Of a stretch of 64,000 nucleotides of DNA, positions 896-30,852 are shown piece by piece; position 1 is the stretch's first letter, and each line of letters begins with the position of its first letter. The notes under the pieces are model-generated. The model ran no database searches. It saw only the letters and a list, made by a program, of their open reading frames with translations, and had not been told where the DNA came from. The stretch lies in contig JBGPFC010000018.1 of the NCBI GenBank assembly GCA_041483195.1, positions 1 through 64,000 on the forward strand. Direction: 5' to 3'. The position numbers and the translations under genes are program-made. This DNA is from Candidatus Eiseniibacteriota bacterium (GTDB lineage: Bacteria; Eisenbacteria; RBG-16-71-46).

Positions 896-942
896 GGCGG
901 CCTCCTTTCGTTCCCCGGGTTTTCGGCAGCGCCCGCCCGGAT

Positions 943-1110
943 CTACACCCCCCGCGCGAGCCTCCTCGCGAGCGCCGTGAGCGCCAGCTTGGGCGCCTCC
1001 GGATCGACGAATCGCACGCGCTCAGGCCGCGCGATGGGTGATGATGTGGCGGACGCGTCGCGCGGTGCGCGTGTGTCGACCCGCACCCCGAGCCGCCGCA
1101 ACTCATCTCG
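943..1110 (-). pseudogene. Diverged, internally deleted remnant of the mutY 3' end
   Basis: Encodes ELRRLGV...RRVRHIITH / PIARPERVRFVD...LTALARRLARGV* versus MutY ELRRLGV...RRVRHTITH...PIARSQRMRFVN...LTALGRKLAKQK*. Confidence 0.85.
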
Positions 1111-1292
1111 ACTCGACCCCCAACAGGGAGCACGCTTCCTCTTCGCGCCGCCGAGGGCTCGCCCCGCGGCCCTGTGAGCCCAAGCCGCCTCAGGACCTCG
1201 CCCGCAGCAGCACCAGGGCACGCGCGCGGTCTTTCCTCGTTCCTTTCAGCACGCCGCGGGACCCCCCGCACCCGGCGGCCCGGAAGTGTCCG

Positions 1293-2914
1293 ATGAGATC
1301 GAGTCGCTGGTTCGCCCTCCTGCTCCTGCTCGGCCTTGGTGCCGCAGCGCCAGCTCGCGCGCAGGAGGATTTCAACTCGGTCGACGTCGCGGTGAACGTC
1401 CTGAAGGGCGCGACCGCGACCGACGATACGATCAAGGCAGTGCTCGCGGCCGCCAACGAGATCCTCAAGCAGGCGAAGGTCGAGCTGCAGCTCAAGAAGA
1501 CCAACCGGAATGTCTCGGACGGTGGAAACGACGACGGCGAGGTGACCGAGGACGAGCGCAAGCAGCCGGTCGCAGCCGGCGCCAAGGAACTCGACACGGT
1601 GTGCGGCAAGGGCAAGGGTTACAAGCTCACGATCGCGCTCGACGCGGATGTGGCGGACCAATCCAACGTCGGGCGCACCGGGCACGGGTTCGGGGTCACG
1701 ATCGCCGAGCTTCTCACCAACAACGGGGAGTCCGGCTACAACGTGGCGCACGAGTTCTGCCGCGCCTTCACCCTGGGCGCCAATCACAAGGTGAACGGGA
1801 CCACCAACGCAGACGGCACCGGACACGTTAACGACATCACGAACCTCATGGATCCGGCCATCGGCGACGGAACGACGCTCACCGCCGACCAGATCGCCGA
1901 GATCCGAAAGCGTGCGACCCGCCGCGGCACCGTGAAGCAGAAGGCGGGAAACGACGGCGCGGCACAGAAGAAGGGGCAGAAGGCCGGCGAGGACGTCGAC
2001 AAGAAATCGGGGGAGGGCGGCGAGCCCGCGGGCATCCTGCCGAAAAGCGACTTCCGGCGGTCGGGACTGTTCCTCGACGGGGGCGATGCGCTGGCTTCCG
2101 GCCACATCCAGATGCAGGGGCGGTTCGACAGCCTGGTGCCGACCCAGTGCCTTTGCACGATGTTCATCGATGCCGACGCCAACCCCGGCGCAGGCCAGCA
2201 CGAGATCGTGGACGGCCTGCCGATCGGCGCCGAGTACCTGGTGCAGATCACCGCGAGCGGGAACGGCGTTGACCCGATCCAGCTCTCGGGGTTTCTCGGG
2301 AACACGCTCACGCTGCAGCAGTTCCCGCTCGCCTCGCTAGAGCTCGAAACCGTCCTCGACATCGCGGACAAGGCACCGGGCGGGTGCCTTCCCTGCGCGA
2401 CGCCGACGCTCGATCAGATCGACTTCGAGGTCCACGCGGCGCAGCTCGGGCCGGTGCTCACGCCACTCCAGGTCGGCGTGCGATTCACGGATCAGATCGC
2501 GTTGACGGTGGACGAGATGCAGTTCCAGTTCCGCGAATGGCCTCGGGGCTGCCGCTGCTCACGCTCGACGACTACGGCGTCGCGCCGCTCGCGATCGTCC
2601 AGGCGACGGGAGACGGCTTCGCGCCATCGAGCCACGTCGTGATCACCGCCGACGACGCGCAGGTCGCCTCCGCGATCACCGATCCGTCCGGCCACTTCAC
2701 AGCCAACCTGCTGGCCCCGGGCGTGGGCGGCACGTTCTACTGGGTGAACGCGCAGGACGCGGGCGGAGGCGGCGATTTTAGCGTGCTGCACGTGACCGGC
2801 GTGGCTCCCCTCGTGCCCGCCGCTTCCGCGTGGGGGCTCGCGGCGCTCGGGGCATTGCTGGTGGCCGCGACCGCGCTCACGCTCCGGAGGCGGCGCGCGG
2901 TGCCGCCCGCCTGA
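1293..2914 (+). CDS. Secreted/surface protein with degenerate zincin-like motif and C-terminal IPTL-CTERM-like anchor; apparent frameshift at ~2545-2548
   Basis: Signal peptide MRSSRWFALLLLLGLGAAAPARA. Frame switches at a GGGG run. Second frame ends VPAASAWGLAALGALLVAATALTLRRRR. Confidence 0.7.
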
Positions 2915-2942
2915 CGCGGGGGACGCGCGCAGAGTCCCCTGG

Positions 2943-2987
2943 TTCTGCTTCGCCAGCTTTCGCCCGAGCGCCGTGAGTGGAACGCGC
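2943..2987 (-). repeat. Direct-repeat copy of the mutY 3' end (43/45 identical to 6252-6296)
   Basis: ttctgcttcgccagctttc(gc/ta)ccgagcgccgtgagtggaacgcgc. Confidence 0.95.
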
Positions 2988-3000
2988 GGCCGCCGCGCGA

Positions 3001-6000
3001 TCAACGCACGATCGCGACCTTCTTGGCGCGTGATTCGCCGGCCTGCCTGAGACGCAGGAAGAACACCCCTGGCGAAATGTCCCGAATGCTGCCGAGTCCC
3101 ATCTGGTGAGGGCCGGCTCCGAGTCCGCCAACGCTTCGCGATCGAACGATGCGCCCGCTCGCGTCAATCAACTCGAGCGTGGATGGACCGGCGCTTGCGA
3201 GCGTGAATTGCACGCTCACCTCACCCGCCGCCGGGTTGGGACTTGCCCCGGCGAGTGCCAACACAAACGCGATCGGCACCTCGACCGAGGCCCTGCCGGT
3301 CCAGTCGCTGTCGCCGTCGGTGGCCAGCCTGATTCGATACTCGTAGCGCCGACCCGGAGTGACTTGCCGGTCCTCGAACACGATCCGCCCGCTCCCGTCC
3401 GCGGCGGCCACGGCGATGGATCGCCAGTCCTCCCTCGCCGCCCGCCGGTGAATGTCGAACTCGCGCCCCGCCGCATCCGGCGCATACCAGGCGAGCCGCA
3501 CGCGATCGGGCGCTGCGTCGGCGCTCACAAGCGAGAGCTGTGCGGGAACCGGAATGTCGGCCGACAATCGCTGGGCGAAAACGTCCTGCGTCCCGTTCCG
3601 ATCGTCAGTCCACATCAGGATGGCGCCGCCGATCCCATCGGCGATCATTCTCACGTAGTCGTGCGTGCTCGCGACGGTGCAAAACGGATTTCCGTTGGCA
3701 GTCCAACCATCCGCGAGCGTGCCCGCGGCCGTGAGCCGCACTGCGTAGAGGTCGTTGACACCGAACCGATAGTCCACCCAGCCGAAGTACGCGCCGCCAT
3801 CCGGGCCTCGCGTGGTGCTCGGCGTGTACCATGGCCCTGCGGGGCTCACGACGGTTCCGGTCACGCTCCAGCCGGGGGCGGCGACCCCTCCCACTCCCAG
3901 GCGCAGACCGAGCAAGCCTCTGTCAGTGGCGGCGCCGCCCGCGAGCACACCGCCCTGGCCGTCGGGCGCGATGTTCCAGGGGGAGAATGTAGTCGGCAAC
4001 AGAATGGACCAGCCGGGTGCACCGGACGCATAGATCCGACTGAGGTCCCAGGATCCGGTGCGGCCCATTTCGTAGAGGAGCCCTGCTGCACCGTCAGACG
4101 CCACCGTCGGAGGAGCGGCCGCGTCAACCCCGGCGGTGATATCCATGACCGATGTGGACGCGGATCCGAAAACGCGAACGAGCTCGGCGTAGTACCTTTC
4201 GGGCGGACAGCCGTGCTGAGAACAGGTGGGCGTGTAGGTTCGAAAAGCAACATAGCCTCCACCCGCGCCGTCGGAGACGATACCTGGACTCGAACTCAGG
4301 GAATACGGCCTCTCGACCGGCAGCCCGGCCGCGGGCCACCCCGTGGGCACGGTGCCCGCACCGGTGATGCGGTAGGCATAGACCGCGACCGGAAGGTTGT
4401 CGCGCCAGTCCGCGGCGGCCAAGATCGCGCCGCCCAGACCGTCTGCGTCCATCGAGAGGGAAGTTTGAGAGCTAGCCGCGCAAACGCGAACACCCTCGGG
4501 CTGCCAGCCCGGTGCGATCGCTCCGCCCGCGAGCAGGCGCTGGGCGTAGATCGCCAAATATCCGTCGCGAGTGTCATGCCACGCAATGATGGCACCCCCG
4601 ACACCGTCCGACACGATGGACGGCGAGCCCTGGTCGGGAGCAGACGTGCAAACCGGCGCCCCACCCGGCGTCCAGCCTGGAACCACCTGACCCGAGACAT
4701 TGAGTCGCACGGCATAGACCCTGTTTCCACTCGATGACCGCCCATCCCGCCATGTGAGGATCGCACCACCCAATCCGTCGGCGATCCCGGTGAGATCCCG
4801 TTGTTGTCCGGTGCCCACCGACACCGGAAGTCCCTGCGCCGTCCAGCGCCCAACCAGCGGAGCGAACGCCACTACCGGGCCGCCGGTACCACAACTGTCC
4901 AGGTACGCCGTGAAATTGTCGGCACCGTAGTTGGCTGCGATGAGATCAGGATGCCCGTCTCCGTTCACATCTCCTGCTTCGAGCGAATAGGGCTGGGTGT
5001 CCGCGATGTAGCTCTGCGGGCCGGAAAAGCCGCCGTCCCCGACCCCGCCAGTCCCAGTGCCGACCAAGAGTGCCAGACGGTTACTCGCGGCGACGGCGAG
5101 CACGCAATCGAGAATTCCGTCTCGTGTGTAGTCGCTGACTGCCATCCCCTGGGTCGCGCCCCCCGCGGAGTAGTAGTTGGGTGGTGAAAAGGTCCCGTCA
5201 CCGTGCCCCGCGCTCCCGTGACCGATCAATACCCGCATTCCATTCGCGTTCGTGACCGCCAGGTCCAGAATCGCATCGCCGTTGAAATCTCGAGCTTCGA
5301 CATTCCAAATCGTGTTGCCGATCGAAATGACGGTTGGCGGGCCGAATCCTCCATCGCCCACGCCCCCCGATCCTGTGCCCGCCACGATGTCGATCTGACT
5401 CGGGCCGTACAACACCACCGCGAGATCGGCGATGCCGTCCCCGTTGAAGTCGCCGGCCGTTGCGGTCGCCGGATACGACGTGCTGTTCCCGAGCACATAG
5501 GTCGTGGGCACGGCAAAGAGACCTAGACCGTTCCCGGTCCCGATCTGGCCGAGCAGAACCGAGATCGTCCCGGCGGTGAGGTTCAGAGCGACGAGATCGA
5601 GCCGGCCATCCGCGTTGAGGTCGCGCGCGACGAGAAACGTCGGATCCGGGCCCGCGGCGTAAGCCACCGGAACAAGAAAGTTCGCAGCCGGCCCGGTTCC
5701 CTGTCCGCGCAACAAGTACACCGATCCGGTGAGGTAGTCCCCGCTGATCAGGTCGGCGTTGCCGTCGCGATCGAAGTCCCCGGCCACGATGTGAAAGGGA
5801 TCACCGGGAACTGAGATAGACGCGCCCACGCCAAAGTGCCCGTCGCCACTCCCCCAGTGGACGGTGACAGTTCCAGCCTGGCCGGTCTTCGGAGGGTAAT
5901 TGCTGTTTGCCACTGCAACGTCCGGCCGACCGTCGCCATTCAAGTCGGCGATCGCAATTCCGTGCGGGTGGCTTCCGGCAACCTGAGGAGGAAAAGGGAG

Positions 6001-6111
6001 GAGGACCGACGCCGGATCGCATGGCGCGTCGGCGGTGGCAGTCCGGACGACGGCGATCAACCCCAGGATCAGCAGGCGGTACGGGCAAACGCGCGCGCAC
6101 TGCACGGCCAT
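3001..6111 (-). CDS. Secreted FG-GAP/VCBS-repeat protein with DGxGG-repeat propeller and FlgD/T9SS-type C-terminal domain
   Basis: Signal peptide; repeated D(L/F)NGDGxxD motifs; 8 DGxGG repeats; C-terminal PNP...IDASGRIVR...GVFFLRL. Confidence 0.85.
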   Translation of the reverse strand: MAVQCARVCPYRLLILGLIAVVRTATADAPCDPASVLLPFPPQVAGSHPHGIAIADLNGDGRPDVAVANSNYPPKTGQAGTVTVHWGSGDGHFGVGASISVPGDPFHIVAGDFDRDGNADLISGDYLTGSVYLLRGQGTGPAANFLVPVAYAAGPDPTFLVARDLNADGRLDLVALNLTAGTISVLLGQIGTGNGLGLFAVPTTYVLGNSTSYPATATAGDFNGDGIADLAVVLYGPSQIDIVAGTGSGGVGDGGFGPPTVISIGNTIWNVEARDFNGDAILDLAVTNANGMRVLIGHGSAGHGDGTFSPPNYYSAGGATQGMAVSDYTRDGILDCVLAVAASNRLALLVGTGTGGVGDGGFSGPQSYIADTQPYSLEAGDVNGDGHPDLIAANYGADNFTAYLDSCGTGGPVVAFAPLVGRWTAQGLPVSVGTGQQRDLTGIADGLGGAILTWRDGRSSSGNRVYAVRLNVSGQVVPGWTPGGAPVCTSAPDQGSPSIVSDGVGGAIIAWHDTRDGYLAIYAQRLLAGGAIAPGWQPEGVRVCAASSQTSLSMDADGLGGAILAAADWRDNLPVAVYAYRITGAGTVPTGWPAAGLPVERPYSLSSSPGIVSDGAGGGYVAFRTYTPTCSQHGCPPERYYAELVRVFGSASTSVMDITAGVDAAAPPTVASDGAAGLLYEMGRTGSWDLSRIYASGAPGWSILLPTTFSPWNIAPDGQGGVLAGGAATDRGLLGLRLGVGGVAAPGWSVTGTVVSPAGPWYTPSTTRGPDGGAYFGWVDYRFGVNDLYAVRLTAAGTLADGWTANGNPFCTVASTHDYVRMIADGIGGAILMWTDDRNGTQDVFAQRLSADIPVPAQLSLVSADAAPDRVRLAWYAPDAAGREFDIHRRAAREDWRSIAVAAADGSGRIVFEDRQVTPGRRYEYRIRLATDGDSDWTGRASVEVPIAFVLALAGASPNPAAGEVSVQFTLASAGPSTLELIDASGRIVRSRSVGGLGAGPHQMGLGSIRDISPGVFFLRLRQAGESRAKKVAIVR

Positions 6112-6247
6112 GGCGGCTCCCTTCGAAACGGCTTCGGCGACGCATCGAGCTTACGCCGGCGGAAGCCAATTACAAACGAGGAAAGTGGGAGACCGGCTCC
6201 ACCGGAAGCGCATCGGCCGCCGCGCTGAGGGACCCGCCCCAACGTCA

Positions 6248-7321
6248 CTACTTCTGCTTCGCCAGCTTTCTACCGAGCGCCGTGAGTGGAACGCGCCGCG
6301 CGCACGCATTCACGAACCGCATCCGCTGAGACCGCGCGATGGGCGCGACCAGCGCCCCGTGCCACACCTCGACCTCGATCGCGCGATGCGTGATGGTGTG
6401 GCGCACCCGCCGTGTCGTTCGCTCGATCCGCGCGAGCACACCGAGTCGCCGCAGCTCTGCCCGCAACGCCGGCGCGGCGTCTTCACCGTGCGCAAGCTCC
6501 ACCCCCGGCGGCTCCCACAGTCCATCGAGCAGCGCGCCCTCGCGGCGCGTGACCAGCAATCGGCCGTCGCGCAGGATCACCGCCACCGCGCGGCGCAGCG
6601 TCTCGGTCGCGCGGCGCGCCGCGACCGGCGGAAATTCCGCGACGCGCCCCCGCGCGCGCGCCCGGCACCACCTCGCCACCGGGCACTCGCCGCAGCGCGG
6701 CGCGCGCGGCACGCACACCGTCGCGCCCAATTCCATCAGCGCCTGGTTCCAGTCCCCCGGCTCCTTCGCCGGAACCAGCTCGGTCGCGATCGCCCACAGG
6801 GCCCGCGCGCCGCGCGGGTCGCGGATCGCGGCCGGCAGCGCGTAGAGGCGCGACAGCACGCGCGCGACGTTGCCATCAAGCACGGGCAGCGGCCGGTCGA
6901 AACAAATGGAGAGCACGGCGCCCACGGTGTAGCGGCCGACGCCCGGCAACGCGCGGAAGCTCTCGGGATCGCTCGGCACGCGGCCGCCGTGCTCGCGCAC
7001 CACGAGCCGCGCGGCGGCGTGCAGATGGCGGGCGCGGCGGTAGTAACCGAGCCCTGACCAGGCGGCGAGCACCGAATCGGGGCGCGCGCGCGCGAGCGCG
7101 TCGAGGCGCGGGAAGCGATCGAGGAAGGCCTTATAATAAGGTAGCGCCGTGGCGACCTGCGTCTGCTGGAGCATCACCTCCGAGACCCAGATGCGATACG
7201 GGTCACGGGTCGAACGCCATGGCATGGGCCGCCCGTGCCGCCGATACCATGTGCGCAGGGCGCGATGAAGCGCCGCGGGTGGAACCGCGAGGCCGGCATT
7301 TTCGAGGAGTGTCCGCGACAT
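6248..7321 (-). CDS. mutY: A/G-specific adenine glycosylase MutY
   Basis: DPYRIWVSEVMLQQTQV, WSGLGYYRRAR, LPGVGRYT HhH, VLDGNVARV, Cx6Cx2Cx5C Fe-S motif, NUDIX-like C-terminus; exact start uncertain. Confidence 0.95.
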   Translation of the reverse strand: MSRTLLENAGLAVPPAALHRALRTWYRRHGRPMPWRSTRDPYRIWVSEVMLQQTQVATALPYYKAFLDRFPRLDALARARPDSVLAAWSGLGYYRRARHLHAAARLVVREHGGRVPSDPESFRALPGVGRYTVGAVLSICFDRPLPVLDGNVARVLSRLYALPAAIRDPRGARALWAIATELVPAKEPGDWNQALMELGATVCVPRAPRCGECPVARWCRARARGRVAEFPPVAARRATETLRRAVAVILRDGRLLVTRREGALLDGLWEPPGVELAHGEDAAPALRAELRRLGVLARIERTTRRVRHTITHRAIEVEVWHGALVAPIARSQRMRFVNACARRVPLTALGRKLAKQK

Positions 7322-8159
7322 GTCTGCTCCCGATCGCATACGTGACGACTTCGTGCGGAGCGTGAATCGCCCGGAATCCGCCATCGAGCTGGCGCGGGTG
7401 GCGCTGCTGGTGGCGGCCGAGTCGGACCTCAACGTGGACATCGACGGCACGATGCGCCAGCTCGAGACCTGGGCCGACGAGTTCCGCGCCCGCATCGAGC
7501 CCGACTGGAACAACCTCCAGAAGCTCGCGCGGCTGCGCACCTACGTGTTCGAAGAGCTGGGCTTTCGCGGCGATCGCCGAGATTACTACAGCCCGAGCAA
7601 TTCTCTGCTGCACGAGGTGATCAAGCGCCGCCGCGGCGTGCCGCTGACCCTCGCGATCGTGTTCATGGAGCTGGGCTGGCGCGCCGGGATTCCGTTCGAG
7701 GGGGTGGGATTCCCCGGGCACTTCCTGGTGCGCCTCCCGGGCGAGCCTCGCGACCTGCTGCTCGATCCCTACAAGCGCGGGATGTCGGTGCACGAGGAGG
7801 ACTGCCGCCAGATGCTGCTCGAGGCGACCGGCGGCCGCATGAGCTACGACCAGCGTCTCACCGTCTCGGTCGGCAAGCGCGACATGGTCGTGCGCCTGCT
7901 CCACAACCTGAAGGGCTCCTACCTGCGCGCGGGCGAGGACGCGCTCGCGCTGACGGCGGTCGAGCGCCTGCTCCTGCTCTCACCGGGCGATCCCGACGAG
8001 ATCCGCGACCGCGGCCTGCTGCTGTTCCGGCTGCGGCGCTACCGCGCGGCGCTCGATTCGCTGCGGGCCTACCTCGCCACCATGCCGCTCGCGCACGATC
8101 GCGAGACGATCGAGAGCCACATCGCAGCGCTGCGCGAGATGATCTCGAGCATGAACTGA
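7320..8159 (+). CDS. SirB1/YchA-family transglutaminase-like protein with TPR
   Basis: GFRGDRRDYYSPSNSLLHEVIKRRRGVPLTL, GVGFPGHFLV, C-terminal EIRDRGL TPR; GAGGAG SD. Confidence 0.85.
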   Translation: MSAPDRIRDDFVRSVNRPESAIELARVALLVAAESDLNVDIDGTMRQLETWADEFRARIEPDWNNLQKLARLRTYVFEELGFRGDRRDYYSPSNSLLHEVIKRRRGVPLTLAIVFMELGWRAGIPFEGVGFPGHFLVRLPGEPRDLLLDPYKRGMSVHEEDCRQMLLEATGGRMSYDQRLTVSVGKRDMVVRLLHNLKGSYLRAGEDALALTAVERLLLLSPGDPDEIRDRGLLLFRLRRYRAALDSLRAYLATMPLAHDRETIESHIAALREMISSMN

Positions 8160-8210
8160 GGGGCGGCGCGCGGCGCGATCTCGAGCGCGCGCGTCAGGCG
8201 CTCGCGGACC

Positions 8211-8414
8211 TCAGCGCTTCGGGGTGAACGCCGCGGACGATGCGTCCTTGAGGTTCGGCGTCTTCTGCTGCGAGCCGGTCCACGCGCAGGCCATCACCAC
8301 GCCGCAGCGCGGGCACTCCATGTGCGCGCTCCGCCCTTCCTCGGCGGTCGGCATCCAGCGATCCATCTTGGTCTGGCACCCCGGCGTGTAGCACAGATAG
8401 ACGCACAGTGGCAT
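8211..8414 (-). CDS. Small zinc-ribbon protein
   Basis: 67 aa with CYTPGC and CPRC motifs. Confidence 0.65.
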   Translation of the reverse strand: MPLCVYLCYTPGCQTKMDRWMPTAEEGRSAHMECPRCGVVMACAWTGSQQKTPNLKDASSAAFTPKR

Positions 8415-8446
8415 CGCGACTCCGTCGTTGAATGATTCCTTCTGCC

Positions 8447-9637: not shown

Positions 9638-9844
9638 GGCCGGGAAGTATAGCGCCCCGCGCGGATTTGCCCCGCAACCCGGCGCGTGACGGCCGCGCAC
9701 CGGCGCCCGCCCGACCGGCGCGCGACGCTGTGCTAGACTGCGCGCGCAAACGCGCGAGCGATCGCGCCTCACCGCGATCCGCGCCGCGAGTTCGAACCTT
9801 CTCGATGCCGCCGCCTACCGCGCGCGGCAGGGAGCACGACTCAC

Positions 9845-10978: not shown

Positions 10979-11009
10979 TCACGATCCACGAAGGTCGCGA
11001 GGCCGCAAC

Positions 11010-12400: not shown

Positions 12401-12435
12401 GGGTCGCGAGTCCGGCCCGCCCGGGGATTCGCCCG

Positions 12436-14665: not shown

Positions 14666-18181
<3,516 letters not shown>

Positions 18182-18195
18182 TCGCATGAGTCAGG

Positions 18196-18232
18196 GGCGG
18201 GGCCGGAGCACGATGCTCCGGCCCCGTCGTTT
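18196..18232 (+). terminator. Intrinsic terminator-like hairpin after the S8 gene
   Basis: ggcggggccggagca-cga-tgctccggccccgtc followed by gttt. Confidence 0.7.
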
Positions 18233-18334
18233 GTGGCGGCCCGCGGGCCACACTTGCACCGGATGGACCTTGCGCGGCAATCTCCGGCACCTCATGCCAA
18301 CCCCACCCCTCCCCTCACCCGCCGCCGTGCGCCC

Positions 18335-21008: not shown

Positions 21009-21010
21009 TC

Positions 21011-22189: not shown

Positions 22190-22202
22190 GCGGCACGCGC
22201 CG

Positions 22203-24077: not shown

Positions 24078-24087
24078 CGCGCGCACG

Positions 24088-25359
24088 CTAGGCACTCGCG
24101 CGCGGGGCGTCAATCGCGGCGAGCGGATCGCGCAGCGCGCGCAACGGCGAGAGCGCGAGCACGACCAGCGCGATGAACGTGACGCCCGCGCCCGCCAGCA
24201 GCACCGCACGCGGACCCGCGCGCTCGCCGAGCACTCCGCCCGCGAGCGACCCCGCCAGCTTCGCCGCGAGGCACGCGAAGGCGATGCTCGCGCTGACGCG
24301 GCCCAGCAGCCGGTCGGGCGTCACGCGCTGGGTGAGACTCAGGAGCTGAATCTCGAAGATGGTGTGCGCCCCGTCGCCGGCCAGCTGCTGGCCGAGCAGC
24401 AGCGCGAGCGCCGTCCACGTCGCGCCATAGGCGAGCGGCGGCAACAGCCTCCCGATCGCGACCAGCGCGAGGCATGCCAGCAGCGCGTTCCCGATTCCGA
24501 GCCTTCGCCCCGCTCGCGTCGCGAGCACGGCGCCGGCGAACGAGCTCGCGCCCCCGACCGCGAACACCATGCCAAGCACCCCGGTCGCGAAGCCGAGCGT
24601 CCGCGCGAAGAACAGCATGAGCATCGCCGCGATCGCGCCGCTCGCGAGGTCGACCAGCAGCCGGCAGGCCGCGACCGAGCGCAGGAGCGGATCGCCCATC
24701 ACCACCCGCAGGCCCTCGGCGATCTCGATGCGCATCGCGCCGCGGTCCGCGACCGGAGCGGGCGCCGGCTCCGGGGCGCGGATCGCGCCGACGCAGACCG
24801 CGGACACCACGAAGCTCACGGCGTCGATCAGCACGGTGAGCGGGCCGCCCAGCCACTGCACCAGCCAGCCCGCGATGCCGAACGCGCCCGTCTCCGCGAC
24901 CGCGCTGCTCGCGGCGAGCCGGCTGTTGGCGGCCACCACCCGGTCGCGCGAGACCAGCGTGGGCAGGTACGAGACGTACGCGACGTCGAACGTCATCGAG
25001 AGCGCGCCCACCATGAACCCGACCGCGTAGAGCTGCGGCATGCGCAGCGCGCCGAGCAGCGCGGCCGCGGGAATGGTGGCGAGCAGCGCGGCGCGGCCGA
25101 GATCGGCGCCGATCATGATCGGGCGCCGGCGCAGCCGGTCCGCCCACGCGCCGGCGAAGAGTCCGACCAGCAGGCCGGGCGCGAGCTCGGCGGCGATCTG
25201 AAACCCCATCTCCATCGGCCGCGCGCGCAGGAACAGCACCGCCGTGAACGGCAGCGCCGCGCGCGTGACCATCGAGCCGAACACCGAGACCGTCTGGCCG
25301 GCCCAGAGGCGGTTGAAATCGGGATCGCGCCCGAGGTTCGCGCGCGCGGCCGCGCTCAC
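24088..25359 (-). CDS. MFS transporter
   Basis: DFNRLWAGQTVSVFG, GAWADRLRRRPIM motif A, 12-TM pattern; GTGA overlap. Confidence 0.9.
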   Translation of the reverse strand: MSAAARANLGRDPDFNRLWAGQTVSVFGSMVTRAALPFTAVLFLRARPMEMGFQIAAELAPGLLVGLFAGAWADRLRRRPIMIGADLGRAALLATIPAAALLGALRMPQLYAVGFMVGALSMTFDVAYVSYLPTLVSRDRVVAANSRLAASSAVAETGAFGIAGWLVQWLGGPLTVLIDAVSFVVSAVCVGAIRAPEPAPAPVADRGAMRIEIAEGLRVVMGDPLLRSVAACRLLVDLASGAIAAMLMLFFARTLGFATGVLGMVFAVGGASSFAGAVLATRAGRRLGIGNALLACLALVAIGRLLPPLAYGATWTALALLLGQQLAGDGAHTIFEIQLLSLTQRVTPDRLLGRVSASIAFACLAAKLAGSLAGGVLGERAGPRAVLLAGAGVTFIALVVLALSPLRALRDPLAAIDAPRASA

Positions 25360-27236
25360 GGATGCGGGGCGCGCGCCGCGCGCAACCGCGCGAGCATCTG
25401 CCGCGCCGCGGGATGGCCGGGATACTCCGAGATCACCGACTCCATCGCGGCCTCCGCTCCATCGAGATCGCCGCGATCCGCGGCGCGCGCCGCGAGCACG
25501 AGGCGCGCCTCCGGCCCCACCGGCCACAGCTCGAGCGCGCGCAGCGCCTCGCGTTCCCCGCCCGCGTGATCGCCGAGCGCGAATATGCACCACGCGCGCA
25601 CCCCGGCGAGCGCACCGAGGAACATCTTCGCCTCGCGGTTCGACTGGAGCGAATCGGCGCGATCCACCTCGCGCATCGCGGCGGCGAACTCGTTGCGCTC
25701 GAGACGCTCGAACCCGCGCAGCATGCCGCGCGTGGCCTCGACATCGACGACCGCGACCTGCGGCGGGGCCCCGGTCTGGTATTGCACGACCGTGACGAGC
25801 TCGAGATCGGGGCGCCTCGTGAACTCGTCGAAGCTCACCCAGCGCAGCGTGCTGTCCCGGTACCACACCTCGAGCGCCTTCGATCCGCCGAACGCGTACT
25901 GGCTCGCGAGCGGCATGTTCATCTGGCCCACCATCGCGCCCCGCGGCAGGCGCGGGAATCCGGCGCGCAGCGCGGCGCGCGTCTCGCTCATGAGCAGCTG
26001 CAACCGCGCGATCTTGGAGAAATCGGTGAAGGCACCGCGCTCATCCGGCATGCCGGTGATCTCGTGCGGCGCCGCGGGACTCGCCGCGAACGCCGCGAGC
26101 TTGACGACCATCACCAGCGCGAGCAGCGCCGGGTGCGCGGCGCTCAGCAGCCCCACGAGCGCGATCCCGAGACCGATGCTGCCGTACAGCGTGCGCGCCG
26201 GCGCCCACAGCGGGTAGATGGTGGCGAGCGTCCCGCAGGCCGCGCCGAACCACGCCAGCCCCCACAGCGTCCACGGCGCGCCGGCGCGCAGGCGCTGGCG
26301 GGCGCGCGCGCCGAGCCCCACCCCGGCGAGCGCGATCGCGATCAGTCCCGCGACCGCCGCGCCCACCGCGATGTCCCACCGTCCCGGGGCCAGCGCCAGG
26401 CTGAAGATCGCGCGCACGCTGTTCCACGCGGCCCACGCCAGCCGCGCGGGGATCGGCGTCGCGAGCAGCGCAGGGTCCCGCTCGAGCCCGTGCGGCAGCT
26501 CGAGCCCCGCGTGCCGGCGGATCGCGAGGTAGGCCACCGCCCAGAGCGCGACCAGCGCGAGGCTCGCCCCCGCCCAGCGCACGCGCGTCCGCCGGTCGGT
26601 CGGCGCGGCGCGCGGCACCCACGGCAGCATCAGCGCGGTGACCACGTTCACTTCCTTGCACAGCAGCGCCGCCAGCAGCGCCGCCAGCGAGGTCGGCAGG
26701 CGGCGCCGCGCCGCCTCGTGAAGCGCGATCGCCGAGAAGAAGAAAGATCCCAGGTCCACCGAGTGCGTCGGCCACGTGATGATGGTGCGCGTGGAATCGG
26801 CCAGCAGCGGAAACGCGGCGGCCGCAGCGGCCGCGTAGCCCGGCCACGTGCCTCGCAGCATCCGGTAGATCAGCAGCGATCCCACCCCGAGCGCGAGCAC
26901 GTGGATCGCCGCGATCGCGCGGGGATGCGCGAGCATCAGCGGGCCGAACAGGAGGTAGTAGACCTGGTGCGAGAGCGGGCGCCAGAACGCGAGCGATCCG
27001 CCGCCATCGAGCAGCGTGTGCCGGTGCTCGAGCAGCGCGCGATGAAGGAAATCGAAGTCCTCCGCCGCCGGCTCGCCGAGCGGCGCGCCGAGGCTGTGGA
27101 GCACGAGCGGAATCAGCGCGGCGAGCGTGGCCCACGCCCACGGATCGCGCCACGCCGGCGGCGCGGGCGATGGCGGCGGCAGCGCCGCGGGGCGCGCCGG
27201 GGCCTTCGATGGAGCCGCGCGGCGGCGGCGGCTCAG
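25356..27236 (-). CDS. Putative GT-C/TPR membrane protein (paralog 2), probable CTG start
   Basis: WRDPWAW, GEPAAEDFD, FWRPL, LLCKE; conserved N-terminus lies upstream of the first GTG. Confidence 0.7.
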   Translation of the reverse strand: MSRRRRAAPSKAPARPAALPPPSPAPPAWRDPWAWATLAALIPLVLHSLGAPLGEPAAEDFDFLHRALLEHRHTLLDGGGSLAFWRPLSHQVYYLLFGPLMLAHPRAIAAIHVLALGVGSLLIYRMLRGTWPGYAAAAAAAFPLLADSTRTIITWPTHSVDLGSFFFSAIALHEAARRRLPTSLAALLAALLCKEVNVVTALMLPWVPRAAPTDRRTRVRWAGASLALVALWAVAYLAIRRHAGLELPHGLERDPALLATPIPARLAWAAWNSVRAIFSLALAPGRWDIAVGAAVAGLIAIALAGVGLGARARQRLRAGAPWTLWGLAWFGAACGTLATIYPLWAPARTLYGSIGLGIALVGLLSAAHPALLALVMVVKLAAFAASPAAPHEITGMPDERGAFTDFSKIARLQLLMSETRAALRAGFPRLPRGAMVGQMNMPLASQYAFGGSKALEVWYRDSTLRWVSFDEFTRRPDLELVTVVQYQTGAPPQVAVVDVEATRGMLRGFERLERNEFAAAMREVDRADSLQSNREAKMFLGALAGVRAWCIFALGDHAGGEREALRALELWPVGPEARLVLAARAADRGDLDGAEAAMESVISEYPGHPAARQMLARLRAARAPHP

Positions 27237-27422
27237 GGCGTCACCTCGGCCCGGGCCGCGGCCACGGCGAGGTTGATCTGCGCGCCGGTATCAGAACGCA
27301 TGCGATGGGCACCGGGTTGGGGTGGGAATGGCGACCCGAAACGCGCAGCTTATCATCGGCCTCCCGGGCTCGTTAACCCGGCTTGTCTCAAGCCCCCGGG
27401 CGCGCGTAAGATTTCGGGTCCG

Positions 27423-28442
27423 ATGACCTCGCAGAACCCACCTTCGAGCGACTCCGCCGTGTTGATCGACACCCACGGCCGCGTGGTGCGTGACCTCCGC
27501 ATCTCGGTCACCGACCGCTGCAACCTGCGCTGCGTGTACTGCATGCCGGCCGAGGGCATGCCGTGGCTCCCGAAGCAGGACCTGCTCACCTACGAGGAGA
27601 TCACGCGCTTCGCGCGCGTCTGCCTCGCGCTCGGCGTGCGCGGCATCCGCTTGACCGGAGGCGAGCCGACGGTGCGCGCCGACCTGCCGGTGCTGGTGCG
27701 GATGCTGAGCGATCTCGCGCCCGGCCTCGATCTCTCGGTGACCACCAACGGCCTCAAGCTGGTCGCGATGGCCGACGAGCTGCGCGCCGCGGGGTTGAAG
27801 CGCGTCAACGTGAGCCTCGACACGCTCGACCCCGAGCGCTTCCACCGGCTCGCGCGGCGCGACCGGTTCCACGAGGTGATCGCGGGGATCGAGGCGGCGC
27901 GGCGCGTGGGGTTCAGCCCGATCAAGGTGAACGCGGTGCTGATGCGCGGCTTCAACGACGACGAGGCGGTGTCGCTCGCGCGCTGGGCGCGCGATCATGA
28001 TTACGAGCTGCGCTTCATCGAGTGGATGCCGCTCGACTTCTCGCACAACTGGTCGCGCGAGAAGCTGGTGCCGGCCGACGAGATCCTGGCCGCGATCGGC
28101 GAAGAATTCCCCCTCGAGCTCGCGCCCGGCGAGGACCCGAGCGCCCCCGCCACGCTCTACGACTACCGCGACGGGCGCGGGCGGGTGGGCGTGATCGCGT
28201 CGGTGACGCGTCCCTTCTGCGGGCACTGCGACCGGATCCGTCTCACCGCCGACGGCCAGATCCGCACCTGCCTGTTCGCGCTCGAGGAGTACGACTTCCG
28301 CAAGGTAATGCGGGGCGGCGGCAGCGACGAAGACGTCGCGGCGCTGCTGCGCTCGGCGGTGTGGCGGAAGAAGCCAGGGCACCTGATCAACAGCCCCTAC
28401 TTCGTCCAGCCCGAACGCGGAATGAGCGCGATCGGGGGCTGA
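27423..28442 (+). CDS. moaA: GTP 3',8-cyclase MoaA
   Basis: LRISVTDRCNLRCVYC radical-SAM motif, PFCGHCDRIRLTADG, C-terminal MSAIGG. Confidence 0.97.
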   Translation: MTSQNPPSSDSAVLIDTHGRVVRDLRISVTDRCNLRCVYCMPAEGMPWLPKQDLLTYEEITRFARVCLALGVRGIRLTGGEPTVRADLPVLVRMLSDLAPGLDLSVTTNGLKLVAMADELRAAGLKRVNVSLDTLDPERFHRLARRDRFHEVIAGIEAARRVGFSPIKVNAVLMRGFNDDEAVSLARWARDHDYELRFIEWMPLDFSHNWSREKLVPADEILAAIGEEFPLELAPGEDPSAPATLYDYRDGRGRVGVIASVTRPFCGHCDRIRLTADGQIRTCLFALEEYDFRKVMRGGGSDEDVAALLRSAVWRKKPGHLINSPYFVQPERGMSAIGG

Positions 28443-28448
28443 AGCGGG
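28420..28448 (+). repeat. Direct repeat copy 1 (moaA 3' end)
   Basis: gaatgagcgcgatcgggggctgaagcggg; 27/29 match to 30810-30838. Confidence 0.9.
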
Positions 28449-28484
28449 AAGGCGGGCGGCCGCCGGAGCGCGGGAGAGGACGGC

Positions 28485-28592
28485 GTGACGAACCGGGACT
28501 TCGGCGACTTAGAGCTGATCGAGCCGCTCGCCAAGGGCGGTATGGCGTGGGTGTGGAAGGCCCGCGAGCGAGCCCTCGATCGCCGCCTTTAG
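28485..28592 (+). pseudogene. Ser/Thr kinase N-terminal fragment
   Basis: MTNRDFGDLELIEPLAKGGMAWVWKARERALDRRL*: Hanks kinase subdomain I, stopping before the VAxK lysine. Confidence 0.7.
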
Positions 28593-28724
28593 GATCGCGA
28601 TGATCTGCGCTTCCCTGGAGCGCTTCCCGGTGCTCGGCATGCGATCCTCAGTGCCGCCGAGGCTAACGAAGACTCGCTATTCGTTCCGTGTGAGCTTCCG
28701 GGGGCTACGTCGGGCGCTATGACT

Positions 28725-29762
28725 CTATGGATTGAATGTGAGCTGCCTCTTATTGCCGGAGGCGACTGTGACGATCCAATTGGTGCCGTTGCTCAAAGTG
28801 AAGTCGAGCGAGCTGAACGCAACATAGGCGATGTCGGTCCCGGTTGGACTCCAAGCGTAGCTGTTGAGGACGGAAGAGCCGACTAGACGTCGTGGCTGGC
28901 TTCCAATTGAGTCCGCGATCCATAGCTCTAGTGGTTCACCGCCGGTGAGCGGACGCTGTAGAAAGGCGATCTCGCTGCCATCCGGCGCGTATCGTGGCAG
29001 GAAGTACTGAGACGACGCACTATTCAACAGGATTCGCTGAGCACCGGTGTCCAAGCGGTACTCTACAATCTGCGATGAGGTGAGCCGACCTGCCGAATGG
29101 CCGTTCACGACGCCCAAGAGTCGAGGAGAAGAACTGTCCCAGTCTGGATAGTCCAATTGCGAATGCACGAGGTGCGCCCCTCCGCCATTCGCACCGACGA
29201 TCCATGCCCCAATCGGTTGGTCCTGTCTTTGAAAGTAGACTACGGAGTCAGCTGCCGGGTTCCACCGTGGCACGTCGGCTCGCCCGGGCGTCGGGAGAAC
29301 AGCCAAGCCCGCCGAGTCTGGAAGACCGCCGACGAGGGGGAACGTGAAGAGTCGTGGACCGACACTCGTTAGCAGCCAGCAAACCAACTTCGTACCGTCA
29401 CGCGAGATATCTGGAGCGCCCGGGTAGAGTGCCATGTGGCGGTGCAGATCCGTCCCATCGGCGCGGATTACCCACCATCCTCCCAGAGAGTCAATCCAGT
29501 CATAACGGACGTCGCCGGTGGTGGGATCGTAGGAGAGACTTCGCAGCGGAAGATGATCGAATAGCAGATGAGTTCCATCCGGAGACCAGACCGGATCCCC
29601 GTACGGCGATCCGGCGAGATACGACGGCGGGATAATCCCACTCTTGGGACGAGAGGGGTGATGGCTACAGCTCAGGGCCAAGACCATTGTTGTAGCCATG
29701 AGTAGCAGCCGCCCTACGCAAAGACGGATGCTGGCAACCACGTGAGTGAATCGCTCTAGCAT
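28725..29762 (-). CDS. TolB-like (PD40/WD40) beta-propeller lipoprotein
   Basis: LALSC lipobox; WSPDG, YAPDG, WSPTG repeats; start uncertain. Confidence 0.75.
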   Translation of the reverse strand: MLERFTHVVASIRLCVGRLLLMATTMVLALSCSHHPSRPKSGIIPPSYLAGSPYGDPVWSPDGTHLLFDHLPLRSLSYDPTTGDVRYDWIDSLGGWWVIRADGTDLHRHMALYPGAPDISRDGTKLVCWLLTSVGPRLFTFPLVGGLPDSAGLAVLPTPGRADVPRWNPAADSVVYFQRQDQPIGAWIVGANGGGAHLVHSQLDYPDWDSSSPRLLGVVNGHSAGRLTSSQIVEYRLDTGAQRILLNSASSQYFLPRYAPDGSEIAFLQRPLTGGEPLELWIADSIGSQPRRLVGSSVLNSYAWSPTGTDIAYVAFSSLDFTLSNGTNWIVTVASGNKRQLTFNP

Positions 29763-29944
29763 GTGAGTGGCGGGCTCCAGAGCGAACGCCGTCAATTGTT
29801 TTCGATACGTGCTTGCACAACAATCCAGTCGCTCACCGTGCCGGCGACCATGAGACGGCGGCGGGCTGCCCGCACCCTTCTCACCACTTCGCAGGCGCCG
29901 GGCCCTTAGGCATCTGAGCTCAAATGAGGGCAAGTGCTGCTCCC

Positions 29945-30748
29945 CTACTTCCCCGACTTTACGCGCACCTCGACGAGCACCCAGTCCGCGAACGCCTTGC
30001 CTTTGAACTGGGCCGGCCGGTACTGCGCCTCGCCGATCGCGTGCGTCGCGGCTGCCACCGCCTCGCCGCTAACTCCCTTGACTGATGTCCGGAGTCCTGC
30101 GTCGACCACCTTCCCGTTGGCGCCGACGAAGGCCACCATGGGGACCGTTTGAGAGGCACCTTGACAGGTCCCACAGACGACCTCGAGCACGGTCGGGCCG
30201 GCTGCGCGCTGACCTGAGCGCTGGATCTCCGCCTGCGTCACCTCCTCCGGCTGTTCGATCGGAACGAGGAAGCGTTCACCATATCGGTAGCGTTGGCCGC
30301 CCCGCACTGTCTCGAGGCGGGTAAGCCGGCTCGGCTCGACGGCGGCTGATTCTGCTTCAACATGAAAGGGAAGTACGAGGTCGAGCTCATGAACAATGTC
30401 GCCTTCCACAACCGTCAAATATCCCCGGATCTCCAGGTCGCCGGGTCGGTCAGGCGAGAGAGTGACGATCCAGCGTTTGCTCGGACCGATGCCACGGCCG
30501 CGGTGCAGCGTGTCTCCCGCAACCAACTTCAGGCCTGGAGACAATTGGAGACGCGCCGTTCCCTCGCCTCCATACTGCCCGGCCATGCTAAACCGAATCC
30601 TGGCCGCTTTTCCCACCCGCGGCTGGTCAAGCCAGACAGCCCCGAACCCGACGGGCGAACTCCCCTCACGCTCGCTGGCGTAGCCCCACACGGCTGAGGC
30701 GACAAACGTCCCCGCCACCACCACGCACAGCATCAACTGTCGCCGCAT
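29945..30748 (-). CDS. Secreted hypothetical protein with TonB C-terminal-like domain
   Basis: GGAGG SD, signal peptide MRRQLMLCVVVAG, C-terminal VGANGKV...AQYRPAQFKGKAFADWVLVEV. Confidence 0.7.
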   Translation of the reverse strand: MRRQLMLCVVVAGTFVASAVWGYASEREGSSPVGFGAVWLDQPRVGKAARIRFSMAGQYGGEGTARLQLSPGLKLVAGDTLHRGRGIGPSKRWIVTLSPDRPGDLEIRGYLTVVEGDIVHELDLVLPFHVEAESAAVEPSRLTRLETVRGGQRYRYGERFLVPIEQPEEVTQAEIQRSGQRAAGPTVLEVVCGTCQGASQTVPMVAFVGANGKVVDAGLRTSVKGVSGEAVAAATHAIGEAQYRPAQFKGKAFADWVLVEVRVKSGK

Positions 30749-30809
30749 GACTACCTCCATTACTCCAGCCGCGCCAGGGTGGTCGTCAACTGCCGACCAC
30801 CCGCCCGGA

Positions 30810-30838
30810 GAATGAGCGCGATCGGCGGCTGAGGCGGG
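30810..30838 (+). repeat. Direct repeat copy 2 (displaced moaA 3' end)
   Basis: gaatgagcgcgatcggcggctgaggcggg, encodes MSAIGG*. Confidence 0.9.
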
Positions 30839-30852
30839 TGCGCTTCGTCGTA

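What the first reader, a model, noticed from the sequence alone, without database searches (positions are those of the whole stretch)
943..30838. Integrase-free islets that integrate at, and duplicate, the 3' ends of housekeeping genes and carry secreted-protein cargo
Seen: three junctions share one geometry, core gene 3' end / 1.8-3.3 kb cargo / displaced copy of that 3' end (two stacked at mutY, one at moaA). All intact cargo genes encode exported proteins (FG-GAP/FlgD, IPTL-CTERM, TolB-like lipoprotein, TonB-C-like). No recombinase, relaxase or transposase lies inside the islets. Established: genomic islands integrating into gene 3' ends leave attL/attR repeats. Inference: these are minimal islets mobilised in trans, eroded islands, or products of homology-facilitated capture that builds cassette-like arrays of surface proteins. 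This may be an undescribed diversification route in this lineage.
Basis: partly seen in the sequence, partly recalled or inferred. Interest (0 to 1): 0.85.

Follow-up and report, generated by a model that had tools for sequence, protein, structure and literature searches.

The report
Integrase-less islets at duplicated gene ends
Small pieces of foreign DNA sit just behind the housekeeping genes mutY and moaA, each followed by a left-over copy of the gene's tail, which is the usual scar of an integrated mobile element that has since lost its own integration gene.

Summary
The mutY 3' end occurs three times (6229-6312, 2920-3003, and a decayed remnant at 943-1141). The moaA 3' end occurs twice (28420-28448 and 30810-30838, 27 of 29 nt). 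Each pair brackets 1.8-3.3 kb of DNA.

Four related genomes, two of them in the same genus, have mutY directly followed by the downstream gene, which is an empty site. A third genome of the genus carries a different single-gene insert there. Copy 3 lies in the native position, so the tail of the present mutY was imported.

A scan of the whole genome finds the same geometry at about three more genes. In a sister species the same gene end is displaced, with different cargo. No recombinase lies in any islet or beside mutY or moaA in relatives. The islets share no sequence with one another.

Best reading (about 0.45): these are eroded integrative elements of the cis-mobilizable (CIME) type, stacked at mutY. 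The genome holds many integrase fragments, and one similar islet keeps an integrase remnant. The main rival (about 0.35) is integrase-free, homology-dependent insertion. The two mutY crossovers lie at different positions, which favours the rival.

Secreted cargo is not a general rule. Integrase-less, repeat-flanked tandem islands are already in print. Interest is moderate.

The parts
1..141 (-). End of a multi-copy insertion sequence. It abuts the stop codon of geneA and is not part of the islets.
   Evidence: Copies 99-100% identical lie at 8 other places in the genome, 7 of them at a contig end and one 68 nt from a contig start (C60), including the far end of this contig. Its last 24 nt recur at 8 more places, at or within about 120 nt of a contig end. 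The N-terminal reading frame looks like an IS5/IS1182-type transposase; that label is recalled, not tested.
137..895 (-). geneA, the native downstream neighbour of mutY. It has no Pfam family.
   Evidence: It follows mutY directly in G001, G002, G005 and G012. Pfam and NCBIfam give no match.
943..1141 (-). Copy 3: the displaced native 3' end of mutY, now decayed by a frameshift and a deletion of about 60 nt.
   Evidence: tblastn matches at 952-1110 and 1028-1141. It lies 47 nt upstream of the geneA start, in the same context as the mutY stop in G001 and G002.
1293..2914 (+). Cargo of islet 1: a secreted protein with a weak IPTL-CTERM-like tail. The gene is frameshifted near 2540-2560.
   Evidence: NCBIfam TIGR04174 scores 17.6 bits, below its cut-off. 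The G001 homologue, 52% identical at protein level, is a single ORF. A contig of run X5 covering 1851-2784 is identical.
2920..3003 (-). Copy 2: the tail of the mutY end that islet 1 had supplied, displaced by islet 2.
   Evidence: 77% over 84 nt against 6229-6312, with a 45-nt core at 96%. It has no stop codon.
3001..6111 (-). Cargo of islet 2: an FG-GAP repeat protein with a T9SS-type sorting tail.
   Evidence: Pfam FG-GAP_3 at 2.4e-44. NCBIfam Por_Secre_tail at 26.6 bits. The best homologue is a 47% paralogue on G000:C14, and no orthologue was found in 101 genomes of the order.
6229..6312 (-). Copy 1: the functional, imported 3' end of mutY plus 19 nt beyond the stop codon.
   Evidence: Identity to the closest relative, G003, falls from about 80% to 59% over the last 132 nt.
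6248..7324 (-). mutY, the adenine DNA glycosylase gene.
   Evidence: Pfam HhH-GPD, NUDIX_4, HHH and EndIII_4Fe-2S.
27423..28442 (+). moaA.
   Evidence: Pfam Radical_SAM and Mob_synth_C. Relatives are 67-88% identical at protein level.
28420..28448 (+). moaA 3' end, proximal copy of the repeat.
28464..28590 (+). Fragment of about 40 codons from the N-terminus of a Ser/Thr protein kinase gene; debris.
   Evidence: 71 nt are 76% identical to the 5' end of G000:C22:47811-50312, which carries Pkinase at 174 bits. The fragment alone has no Pfam match.
28581..28711 (-). Fragment of the left end of an IS3-family insertion sequence.
   Evidence: 85% identical over 132 nt to two copies of a 1.25-kb element in G022. 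That element encodes HTH_Tnp_1 and rve proteins.
28725..29762 (-). Cargo: a lipoprotein with PD40/TolB-like repeats. Its base composition is atypical.
   Evidence: NCBIfam TolB propeller, partial match at 2.2e-11. A lipobox-like LALSC motif was read from the translation. GC is about 0.60 against 0.70 for the genome. My codon-usage gene caller did not call it.
29945..30748 (-). Cargo: a 267-aa protein with a signal peptide and no known family.
   Evidence: No Pfam or NCBIfam match. Homologues occur in 12 of 101 other genomes of the order and in 0 of 3 of the same genus.
30810..30838 (+). Distal copy of the moaA 3' end. It reads MSAIGG-stop.
   Evidence: 27 of 29 nt.
30853..32955 (-). Convergent flanking gene: a PD40 protein with a FlgD_ig/T9SS tail. 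It marks the far border of the moaA islet.
   Evidence: Pfam PD40 and FlgD_ig; gene call.

Best explanation
The islets are what remains of integrative elements that entered by site-specific recombination inside the last 30-230 nt of a gene.

Each element carried a substitute gene end. After integration the gene stays intact, and its original tail is left as a fragment on the far side of the insert. The recombinase and any transfer genes were later lost by deletion. What remains is 1-6 kb of cargo between the two attachment-site scars. This matches the definition of a cis-mobilizable element (CIME).

At mutY two such events are stacked. The first displaced the native tail (copy 3, next to geneA). 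The second entered the tail supplied by the first and displaced part of it (copy 2).

Shown here: the insertions, the displaced native end, the imported functional end, and the absence of a recombinase. Inferred: that a recombinase made the joints and was later lost.
For: 1. Empty sites. mutY is followed directly by geneA in G001, G002, G005 and G012.
2. Copy 3 keeps the native context, 47 nt upstream of the geneA start, as in G001 and G002.
3. At the HI0933-like gene (G000:C1:50135-51445) the displaced copies in G000 and in sister species G001 encode QWAW. That is the residue pattern of the intact gene in G003, G005 and G006. The functional genes of G000 and G001 read QWSW. So the native end was displaced and a foreign end was installed.
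4. Most repeats stop at or just past the stop codon: exactly at it for the HI0933-like and ACP genes, 6 nt past for moaA, 19 nt past for mutY and 33 nt past for C1:122880. This is expected if similarity is kept only where it must encode the protein.
5. The cargo looks foreign. Islet GC is 0.625-0.69 (0.706 for the ACP islet) against 0.70 for the genome. No copy of any islet lies elsewhere in the genome. Cargo homologues are patchy in relatives.
6. The genome is full of decaying tyrosine recombinase genes: 14 PF00589 matches, most of them C-terminal fragments. A comparable islet at G000:C39, 1.33 kb between 82-nt repeats at 88%, keeps a 116-aa integrase remnant beside an outer-membrane-like gene.
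7. Precedent in print. The restored target and its displaced fragment mark island ends (PMC4383910, abstract in a search listing). CIME definition and accretion (PMC5704250, passages). Fifteen ssrA islands without integration modules in Dehalococcoides (PMC3146451, passages). The icd gene and its icdC fragment around prophage e14 (PMC13626634, passages).
Against: - None of the islets at the 5 gene ends (6 islets, two of them at mutY) holds any recombinase remnant or other hallmark gene of an integrative element.
- No PF00589 match at E 1e-12 or better lies within 100 kb of mutY or moaA on the same contig in 40 relatives. 150 matches were listed and 23 were not.
- The two mutY events displaced fragments of different length, at least 190 nt and about 60-84 nt. 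The crossovers were therefore at different positions, which one attachment core does not explain.
- G003 has an insert at the same place with no repeat and a small loss of the mutY end.
- Islets of different sites share no arm sequence.
- The G001 islet at the HI0933-like gene carries ordinary-looking genes: ABC-F, YaeQ and MarR.
- Repeats of 82-245 nt at gene 5' ends also occur. The 245-nt, 98% pair around a single methyltransferase gene on C20 is long for an attachment site.
Confidence: 0.45

Rival explanations
1. Integrase-free, homology-dependent capture. A foreign fragment from a relative carries the conserved end of the same gene plus that relative's own downstream DNA. It recombines with the chromosome through that short homology, either as a circle by a single Campbell-type crossover or as a linear piece with one homologous and one illegitimate joint. 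Only insertions that leave a whole gene survive, so the survivors show a duplicated gene end.
For: - The crossovers in mutY lie at different positions.
- Repeat lengths range from 29 to 245 nt and occur at 3' and 5' gene ends.
- On C20 a 908-nt insert holding one gene sits between 245-nt repeats at 98%. G001, G002, G005 and G006 have the uninterrupted site.
- G003 has a repeat-less insertion with a small deletion at the same mutY position, as expected from a one-sided illegitimate joint.
- There is no recombinase in cis here or at these genes in relatives.
- Islets share no arms.
- The last 20 nt of moaA are nearly invariant across 20 relatives, so they give a ready homology patch.
Against: - The model needs a circular intermediate or an unusual joint topology, and I have no direct evidence for either.
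- 29-60 nt at 83-93% identity is poor substrate for RecA (general knowledge, not tested here).
- It does not explain the integrase remnant in the C39 islet or the many integrase fragments.
- No donor arrangement was found. Neither the FG-GAP gene nor the 402-aa gene has a close relative in the collections searched.
Confidence: 0.35
2. Intact minimal elements moved in trans by a recombinase encoded elsewhere in the genome, in the way integron cassettes or Xer-dependent elements are moved.
For: - The genome has a few intact tyrosine recombinases away from the islets: C5:105-881, C4:134404-135408 and two Xer-like genes on C5.
- The repeats are retained at both islet ends.
Against: - The repeats at mutY, moaA, the HI0933-like gene, the ACP gene and C1:122880 share no motif, and the islets share no arm.
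- A single recombinase would need one recognisable site.
- No contig in four other runs joins across an islet. Contigs drop rare variants, so this point is weak.
Confidence: 0.1
3. Local duplication without foreign DNA: a tandem duplication or a template switch copied the gene end, and the copies later diverged.
For: The C20 pair is 98% identical over 245 nt. That is compatible with a recent true duplication of the target.
Against: - The inserts have no second copy in the genome.
- Their composition is atypical.
- At mutY and the HI0933-like gene the displaced copy is the native-type one and the functional copy is the divergent one.
- For four of the five 3'-end repeats the boundary falls at or within 19 nt of the stop codon. 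A blind duplication would not give that.
Confidence: 0.05

Closest known systems
Cis-mobilizable elements (CIMEs) and tandem accretion at the 3' end of a housekeeping gene. The ICESt1/ICESt3 family at fda in Streptococcus thermophilus is cited in PMC5704250; the fda target itself is recalled from memory.
   Same: - Cargo lies between attL-like and attR-like repeats of a gene's 3' end.
- There are no integration or transfer genes.
- Elements are stacked in tandem.
- The target gene is kept intact.
   Different: - No related intact element with an integrase was found here for any site.
- The two stacked events in mutY used different crossover positions.
- The islets are 0.9-6.4 kb, often a single gene.
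- The host is an uncultured lineage, Candidatus Eisenbacteria according to earlier scan notes that I did not test.
Dehalococcoides ssrA genomic islands (PMC3146451, passages read)
   Same: - Arrays of islands lie downstream of a single-copy housekeeping gene.
- Each is bounded by a short direct repeat of its 3' end.
- 15 islands lack an integration module, and the authors discuss them as possible CIMEs.
   Different: - There the target is an RNA gene, and the repeat is one fixed 20-bp sequence.
- 16 sister islands carry a serine recombinase module.
- Here the targets are protein-coding genes, the repeats differ from site to site, and no module-bearing sister was found.
Prophage e14 in the icd gene of Escherichia coli, with the icdC fragment (PMC13626634, passages read)
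   Same: - The element supplies a substitute C-terminal coding end for a metabolic gene.
- The native end is left as a pseudogene fragment on the far side. mutY copy 3 is a fragment of this kind, about 190 nt long.
   Different: - e14 is a 15-kb prophage with its own integrase and still excises.
- These islets have no recombinase and no phage genes.
Displaced 'orphan' ends in Rhs and CdiA toxin loci (recalled, not searched)
   Same: A newly acquired 3' gene end pushes the former end downstream together with a stub of conserved sequence, which builds an array.
   Different: - There the variable end is the functional payload, a toxin tip with its immunity gene.
- Here the gene ends are housekeeping sequence, and the payload is unrelated genes between the copies.

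Membership tests
Cis-mobilizable element (CIME) or decayed integrative element | [quoted passage not shown] | tested here: met
   mutY: 84 nt at 77% with a 45-nt core at 96%, plus the remnant of about 190 nt. moaA: 27 of 29 nt.
Cis-mobilizable element (CIME) or decayed integrative element | Lacks integration and transfer genes | tested here: met
   No PF00589 or PF00239 match on the window's contig. Pfam and NCBIfam on all cargo ORFs gave no recombinase, relaxase or transposase. Only a 132-nt IS3 fragment is present.
Cis-mobilizable element (CIME) or decayed integrative element | Is an insertion relative to related genomes, shown by an empty site | tested here: met
   mutY site: empty in G001, G002, G005 and G012, and a different insert in G003. 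moaA site: the downstream region varies in all 20 relatives examined, and no clean empty site could be defined.
Cis-mobilizable element (CIME) or decayed integrative element | Derives from an element that had a site-specific recombinase; related intact elements use the same attachment site | tested here: not met
   No recombinase near mutY or moaA in 40 relatives. No close relative of the cargo in the order, in metagenome contigs or in genome contigs. Indirect support only: an integrase remnant in a comparable islet on C39.
Cis-mobilizable element (CIME) or decayed integrative element | Stacked elements share one attachment core | tested here: inconclusive
   All three mutY copies share an identical 13-nt stretch. 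However, the displaced fragments differ in length, at least 190 nt against about 60-84 nt, which points to different crossover positions.
Cis-mobilizable element (CIME) or decayed integrative element | Can be excised or mobilised through its attachment sites | not testable with these tools
   Only assembled contigs of public runs were available. They show no joint across an islet, and contigs cannot show rare circles.
Diversity-generating retroelement (variable region at a gene's 3' end with a template repeat downstream) | A reverse transcriptase nearby, and differences between the copies confined to adenines of the template | tested here: not met
   No reverse transcriptase among the cargo ORFs. 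The mismatches between copies involve all four bases.
Transposon or insertion-sequence target-site duplication | Short identical duplication flanking an element with terminal repeats and a transposase | tested here: not met
   The repeats are 29-190 nt and were never identical: the native-type and imported-type ends differ. There is no transposase and no terminal inverted repeat shared between islets.

The most novel reading that the evidence does not exclude
In this lineage new genes are installed behind conserved genes without any dedicated recombinase. Fragments from relatives carry the conserved last tens of bases of a housekeeping gene and use that patch as their only address. They insert by host recombination, push the old gene end downstream, and build cassette-like stacks. 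The conserved gene ends thus act as natural landing pads for single-gene cargo.
Probability: 0.25. Interest if true: 0.7.

Novelty: new member of a known kind. Interest (0 to 1): 0.4.

Why it matters
Gene-transfer hotspots without recognisable mobile-element genes are common in bacterial genomes, and how DNA gets into them is often unclear.

This locus gives a dated, ordered record of three separate insertions within one genus, all in the last 20-230 nt of mutY. There are empty sites for comparison. The same scar appears at several other genes and in a sister species.

If the islets are eroded integrative elements, the locus shows how fast such elements lose their recombinase in an uncultured soil and sediment phylum. 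It also shows that displaced gene ends can be used to map old islands at protein-coding genes, as Islander does for tRNA genes.

If the integrase-free route is real, conserved gene ends would be general landing pads for single genes. That would be a new view of how accessory surface proteins turn over.

Tried and rejected
- Rfam, at gathering threshold on 1-33000 and at E-value threshold on 28400-30900, and ARAGORN on the whole window found nothing. No tRNA or known RNA serves as a target or element part.
- A motif scan for the MutY C-terminal helix in 20 mutY loci of 19 relatives found no second copy. One pattern match in G009, 680 nt past the stop, has unrelated flanking residues and is judged chance. 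The same pattern matches 11 other places in G000.
- Searches for donors or intact sister elements found no close relative and no link to mutY or moaA. The queries were the 268-aa cargo in 101 other genomes of the order (flanks), the FG-GAP cargo in the same genomes and in metagenome contigs, and the 402-aa cargo in genome contigs.
- tblastx between the islets at the HI0933-like gene in G000, G001 and G003 was too noisy in this GC-rich DNA to use.
- I looked for a positive control, an intact integrase with a displaced target fragment, around integrases of G001, G003 and G006. The G001 and G003 integrases sit beside tRNA-Thr and tRNA-Phe, but no flanking repeat of a gene end turned up in the stretches fetched.
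- Laying contigs of four other runs gave no joint that skips an islet and none that links mutY to geneA. The listed joints have sides of 20-38 nt and lie inside 5208-8616, so they are probably other organisms. Contigs cannot show rare forms, so this says nothing about excision. Only 1-9000 was laid, and the moaA junctions were not checked this way.
- I tried to decide which moaA copy is native from the codons upstream of the core. The distal copy matches the QPAR-type and QPER-type ends about equally, 16 and 15 of 21 nt by my count. No conclusion follows.
- The DsbD site on C39 was compared with five relatives. The region is variable in all of them and no clean empty site could be defined.
- The 42-aa kinase-like fragment alone has no Pfam match. 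Its identity rests on the match to the kinase gene on C22.

Full report
**What is there**

The window is the first 64 kb of a 79-kb contig from a 4.17-Mb, 70% GC genome in 93 contigs. Earlier notes of this scan call it Candidatus Eisenbacteria; I did not test that.

mutY lies at 6248-7324 on the minus strand and moaA at 27423-28442 on the plus strand. Both have full sets of Pfam domains.

Behind mutY, reading along its strand, the order is:
- the functional 3' end (copy 1, 6229-6312);
- an FG-GAP protein gene with a T9SS-type tail (6111-3001);
- a second copy of the mutY end (2920-3003);
- a convergent, frameshifted gene for a secreted protein with a weak IPTL-CTERM-like tail (1293-2914);
- a third copy (943-1141);
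- 47 nt later, the start of a gene with no known family, here called geneA (895-137).

Copies 1 and 2 agree at 77% over 84 nt, with a 45-nt core at 96%. It is about 190 nt of mutY C-terminal coding sequence with a frameshift and a deletion of about 60 nt, 42% identical over 69 residues.

Behind moaA, 29 nt that include the stop codon recur 2390 nt downstream at 27 of 29. The copy is still in frame as MSAIGG-stop, and it lies 14 nt from the stop of a convergent gene.

Between the two moaA copies lie:
- a fragment of about 40 codons from the start of a Ser/Thr kinase gene;
- 132 nt from the left end of an IS3-family element, which is intact in two copies in G022;
- a gene for a PD40/TolB-like lipoprotein and a gene for a 267-aa protein with a signal peptide.

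The GC content of this stretch is 0.625.

**More than chance, and not an assembly artefact**

I seeded on 14-mers and extended without gaps. The genome has 911 direct-repeat pairs of 24 nt or more spaced 0.2-15 kb apart, and 631 of them lie inside one gene. Three genomes simulated with a fifth-order Markov model gave 29, 35 and 31 such pairs. They gave 5, 5 and 6 pairs of 29 nt or more, and 0, 0 and 1 of 40 nt or more.

Using gene calls from a codon-usage model I built (3313 genes), I counted 8 pairs in which one copy covers a stop codon and the other is a non-coding copy downstream of that gene. The mirrored geometry gave 1.

Of the 8 pairs:
- five look real: mutY, moaA, an HI0933-like flavoprotein gene (C1:50135-51445; 60 nt, 83%, 2.5 kb apart), C1:122880-123986 (54 nt, 87%, 6.4 kb apart) and an acyl-carrier-like gene on C40 (48 nt, 92%, 0.95 kb apart);
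- one is a run of tandem paralogues (C2);
- one is really a 5'-end duplication (C20);
- one 24-nt pair is probably chance.

mutY copy 3 is too diverged for the seed and was missed by the scan.

Contigs assembled from four other sediment runs cover 361-1304, 918-1145, 2733-3056, 2791-3353, 6109-7183 and 6226-7128 with no differences. The junctions are therefore not peculiar to this assembly.

**They are insertions, and the native end is the displaced one**

In 40 relatives searched with the DNA, followed by protein-level mapping of 20 fetched mutY loci from 19 genomes, geneA lies downstream of mutY in five.
- In G001 and G002 (same genus) and in G005 and G012, geneA follows mutY directly.
- In G003 (same genus) 3.3 kb intervene. 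This stretch is filled by one 1068-aa gene with a FlgD_ig tail that converges on mutY and overlaps its end by 50 nt. There is no repeat, and the last codons of mutY are replaced.

The alignment shows that copy 3 is followed by the same short spacer, ribosome-binding site and geneA start as the mutY stop codon in G001 and G002. Copy 3 is therefore the original mutY end, left in place. The present end was brought in.

Consistent with that, identity of mutY to its closest relative G003 is about 80% along the gene. It falls to 72% between 222 and 132 nt from the stop, and to 59% in the last 132 nt, where G003 is no longer the best match. This region is variable in all relatives, so the point is modest.

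The implied order is:
1. A first insert displaced at least 190 nt of native mutY.
2. A second insert entered the substitute end and displaced its last 60-84 nt.

For moaA the downstream region differs in all 20 relatives examined, and none carries the cargo. No clean empty site could be shown there. The last 20 nt of moaA are almost invariant across the family.

**The pattern recurs, also in a sister species**

At the HI0933-like gene, G001 also has a displaced copy of the gene end, 5.3 kb downstream (43 nt, 86%). The displaced fragments of G000 and G001 match each other at 84% over 91 nt. Both displaced copies read QWAW, as does the intact gene in G003, G005 and G006. The working genes of G000 and G001 read QWSW.

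The cargo differs completely between the two species. G000 has a 520-aa protein of no family. G001 has an ABC-F ATPase, YaeQ and a MarR regulator.

Other islets carry an ice-binding-like protein with a sigma-54 regulator and a hybrid kinase, or a 239-aa protein of no family. Secreted cargo is therefore not a rule, and T9SS-type tails are common here anyway, with 97 FlgD_ig matches.

Duplications also occur at 5' gene ends. The clearest is a 908-nt insert with one methyltransferase gene between 245-nt repeats at 98% on C20. G001, G002, G005 and G006 have the uninterrupted site.

**Recombinases**

- No tyrosine or serine recombinase lies on the window's contig or inside any islet.
- In 40 relatives, none of the 150 listed PF00589 matches at E 1e-12 or better lies within 100 kb of mutY or moaA on the same contig; 23 matches were not listed.
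- Islets of different sites share nothing beyond their own gene-end repeats.
- None has a second copy in the genome.

On the other hand, the genome holds 14 PF00589 matches, and most are C-terminal fragments or truncated genes. An islet on C39 is 1.33 kb long between 82-nt repeats at 88%. It keeps a 116-aa integrase remnant next to an outer-membrane-like gene. C14 holds three integrase-end fragments within 8 kb, among IS3 and IS110 transposase genes.

**Mechanism**

The scar is textbook for integrative elements. The element restores the gene it splits, and the restored gene and the displaced fragment mark its ends (PMC4383910, abstract as listed). Prophage e14 does this to icd and leaves the icdC fragment (PMC13626634, passages).

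Elements that keep both attachment scars but have lost integration and transfer genes are called cis-mobilizable elements. [quoted passage not shown] Fifteen such integrase-less islands stand in tandem behind ssrA in Dehalococcoides (PMC3146451, passages).

I take this as the most likely history here, at about 0.45.

It does not fit everything:
- the two mutY crossovers differ;
- G003 shows an insertion without a repeat at the same spot;
- no intact sister element was found;
- the inserts are often a single gene;
- one pair of repeats is 245 nt long.

These points fit a route in which host recombination uses the conserved gene end as its only homology, and selection keeps only insertions that leave a whole gene. 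I put that at about 0.35. It would need a circular intermediate or an unusual joint, and I have no evidence for either.

Mobilisation in trans by one recombinase is unlikely, because the sites share no motif. Blind local duplication is unlikely for three reasons. The cargo is unique and atypical in composition. The displaced copy is the native type. Most repeats end at or just past the stop codon: exactly at it for the HI0933-like and ACP genes, and 6, 19 and 33 nt past it for moaA, mutY and C1:122880.

**Verdict**

The finding is real, recurrent and well supported by comparison. It is most likely a new example of a known kind in a little-studied phylum. A minority reading, integrase-free landing at conserved gene ends, would be more interesting and can be tested with raw reads and more genomes.

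Noticed in passing
window 1-141 (also 79002-79139 of the same contig): A multi-copy insertion sequence ends here, overlapping the stop codon of geneA. Near-identical 138-141-nt copies lie at 8 other places, 7 at a contig end and one 68 nt from a contig start (C60), so this element is what broke the assembly. Its reading frame starts like an IS5/IS1182-type transposase; that label is recalled.
   Followed up: partly
window 22203-24209 and 25356-27104: Two paralogous membrane/TPR genes lie 3144 nt apart, about 67-78% identical in patches, with an MFS transporter gene between them. Further paralogues lie on C11, C30 and C53, and beside moaA in G003.
   Followed up: no
G000:C20:57456-58853 (locus L053): One methyltransferase gene (908-nt insert) lies between 245-nt direct repeats at 98%. 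The repeats span the start of a DUF885 gene and its upstream region. Four relatives have the uninterrupted site.
   Followed up: partly
G000:C39:17207-18618 (locus L087): A 1.33-kb islet between 82-nt repeats at 88% lies behind dsbD. It holds a 116-aa integrase C-terminal remnant and an outer-membrane-like gene. The region is variable in five relatives.
   Followed up: partly
G000:C14:5880-13660 (locus L088): Three fragments of the same integrase 3' end lie within 8 kb, interleaved with IS3 and IS110 transposase genes. This is a graveyard of stacked elements.
   Followed up: no
G003:C9, locus L011 6604-9810: A 1068-aa gene with a FlgD_ig tail converges on mutY and overlaps its last 50 nt. The G003 MutY therefore ends in residues read from the antisense of the neighbour's sorting tail.
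   Followed up: partly
G001:C77 and G003:C28 (loci L093, L095): A tyrosine integrase gene sits beside tRNA-Thr(CGT) and tRNA-Phe at the same place in two species of the genus, with tRNA-SeC a few kb away. It may be an old fixed island.
   Followed up: no
window 1293-2914: The tail of this cargo protein is weakly IPTL-CTERM-like (17.6 bits, below cut-off). I did not test this.
   Followed up: no
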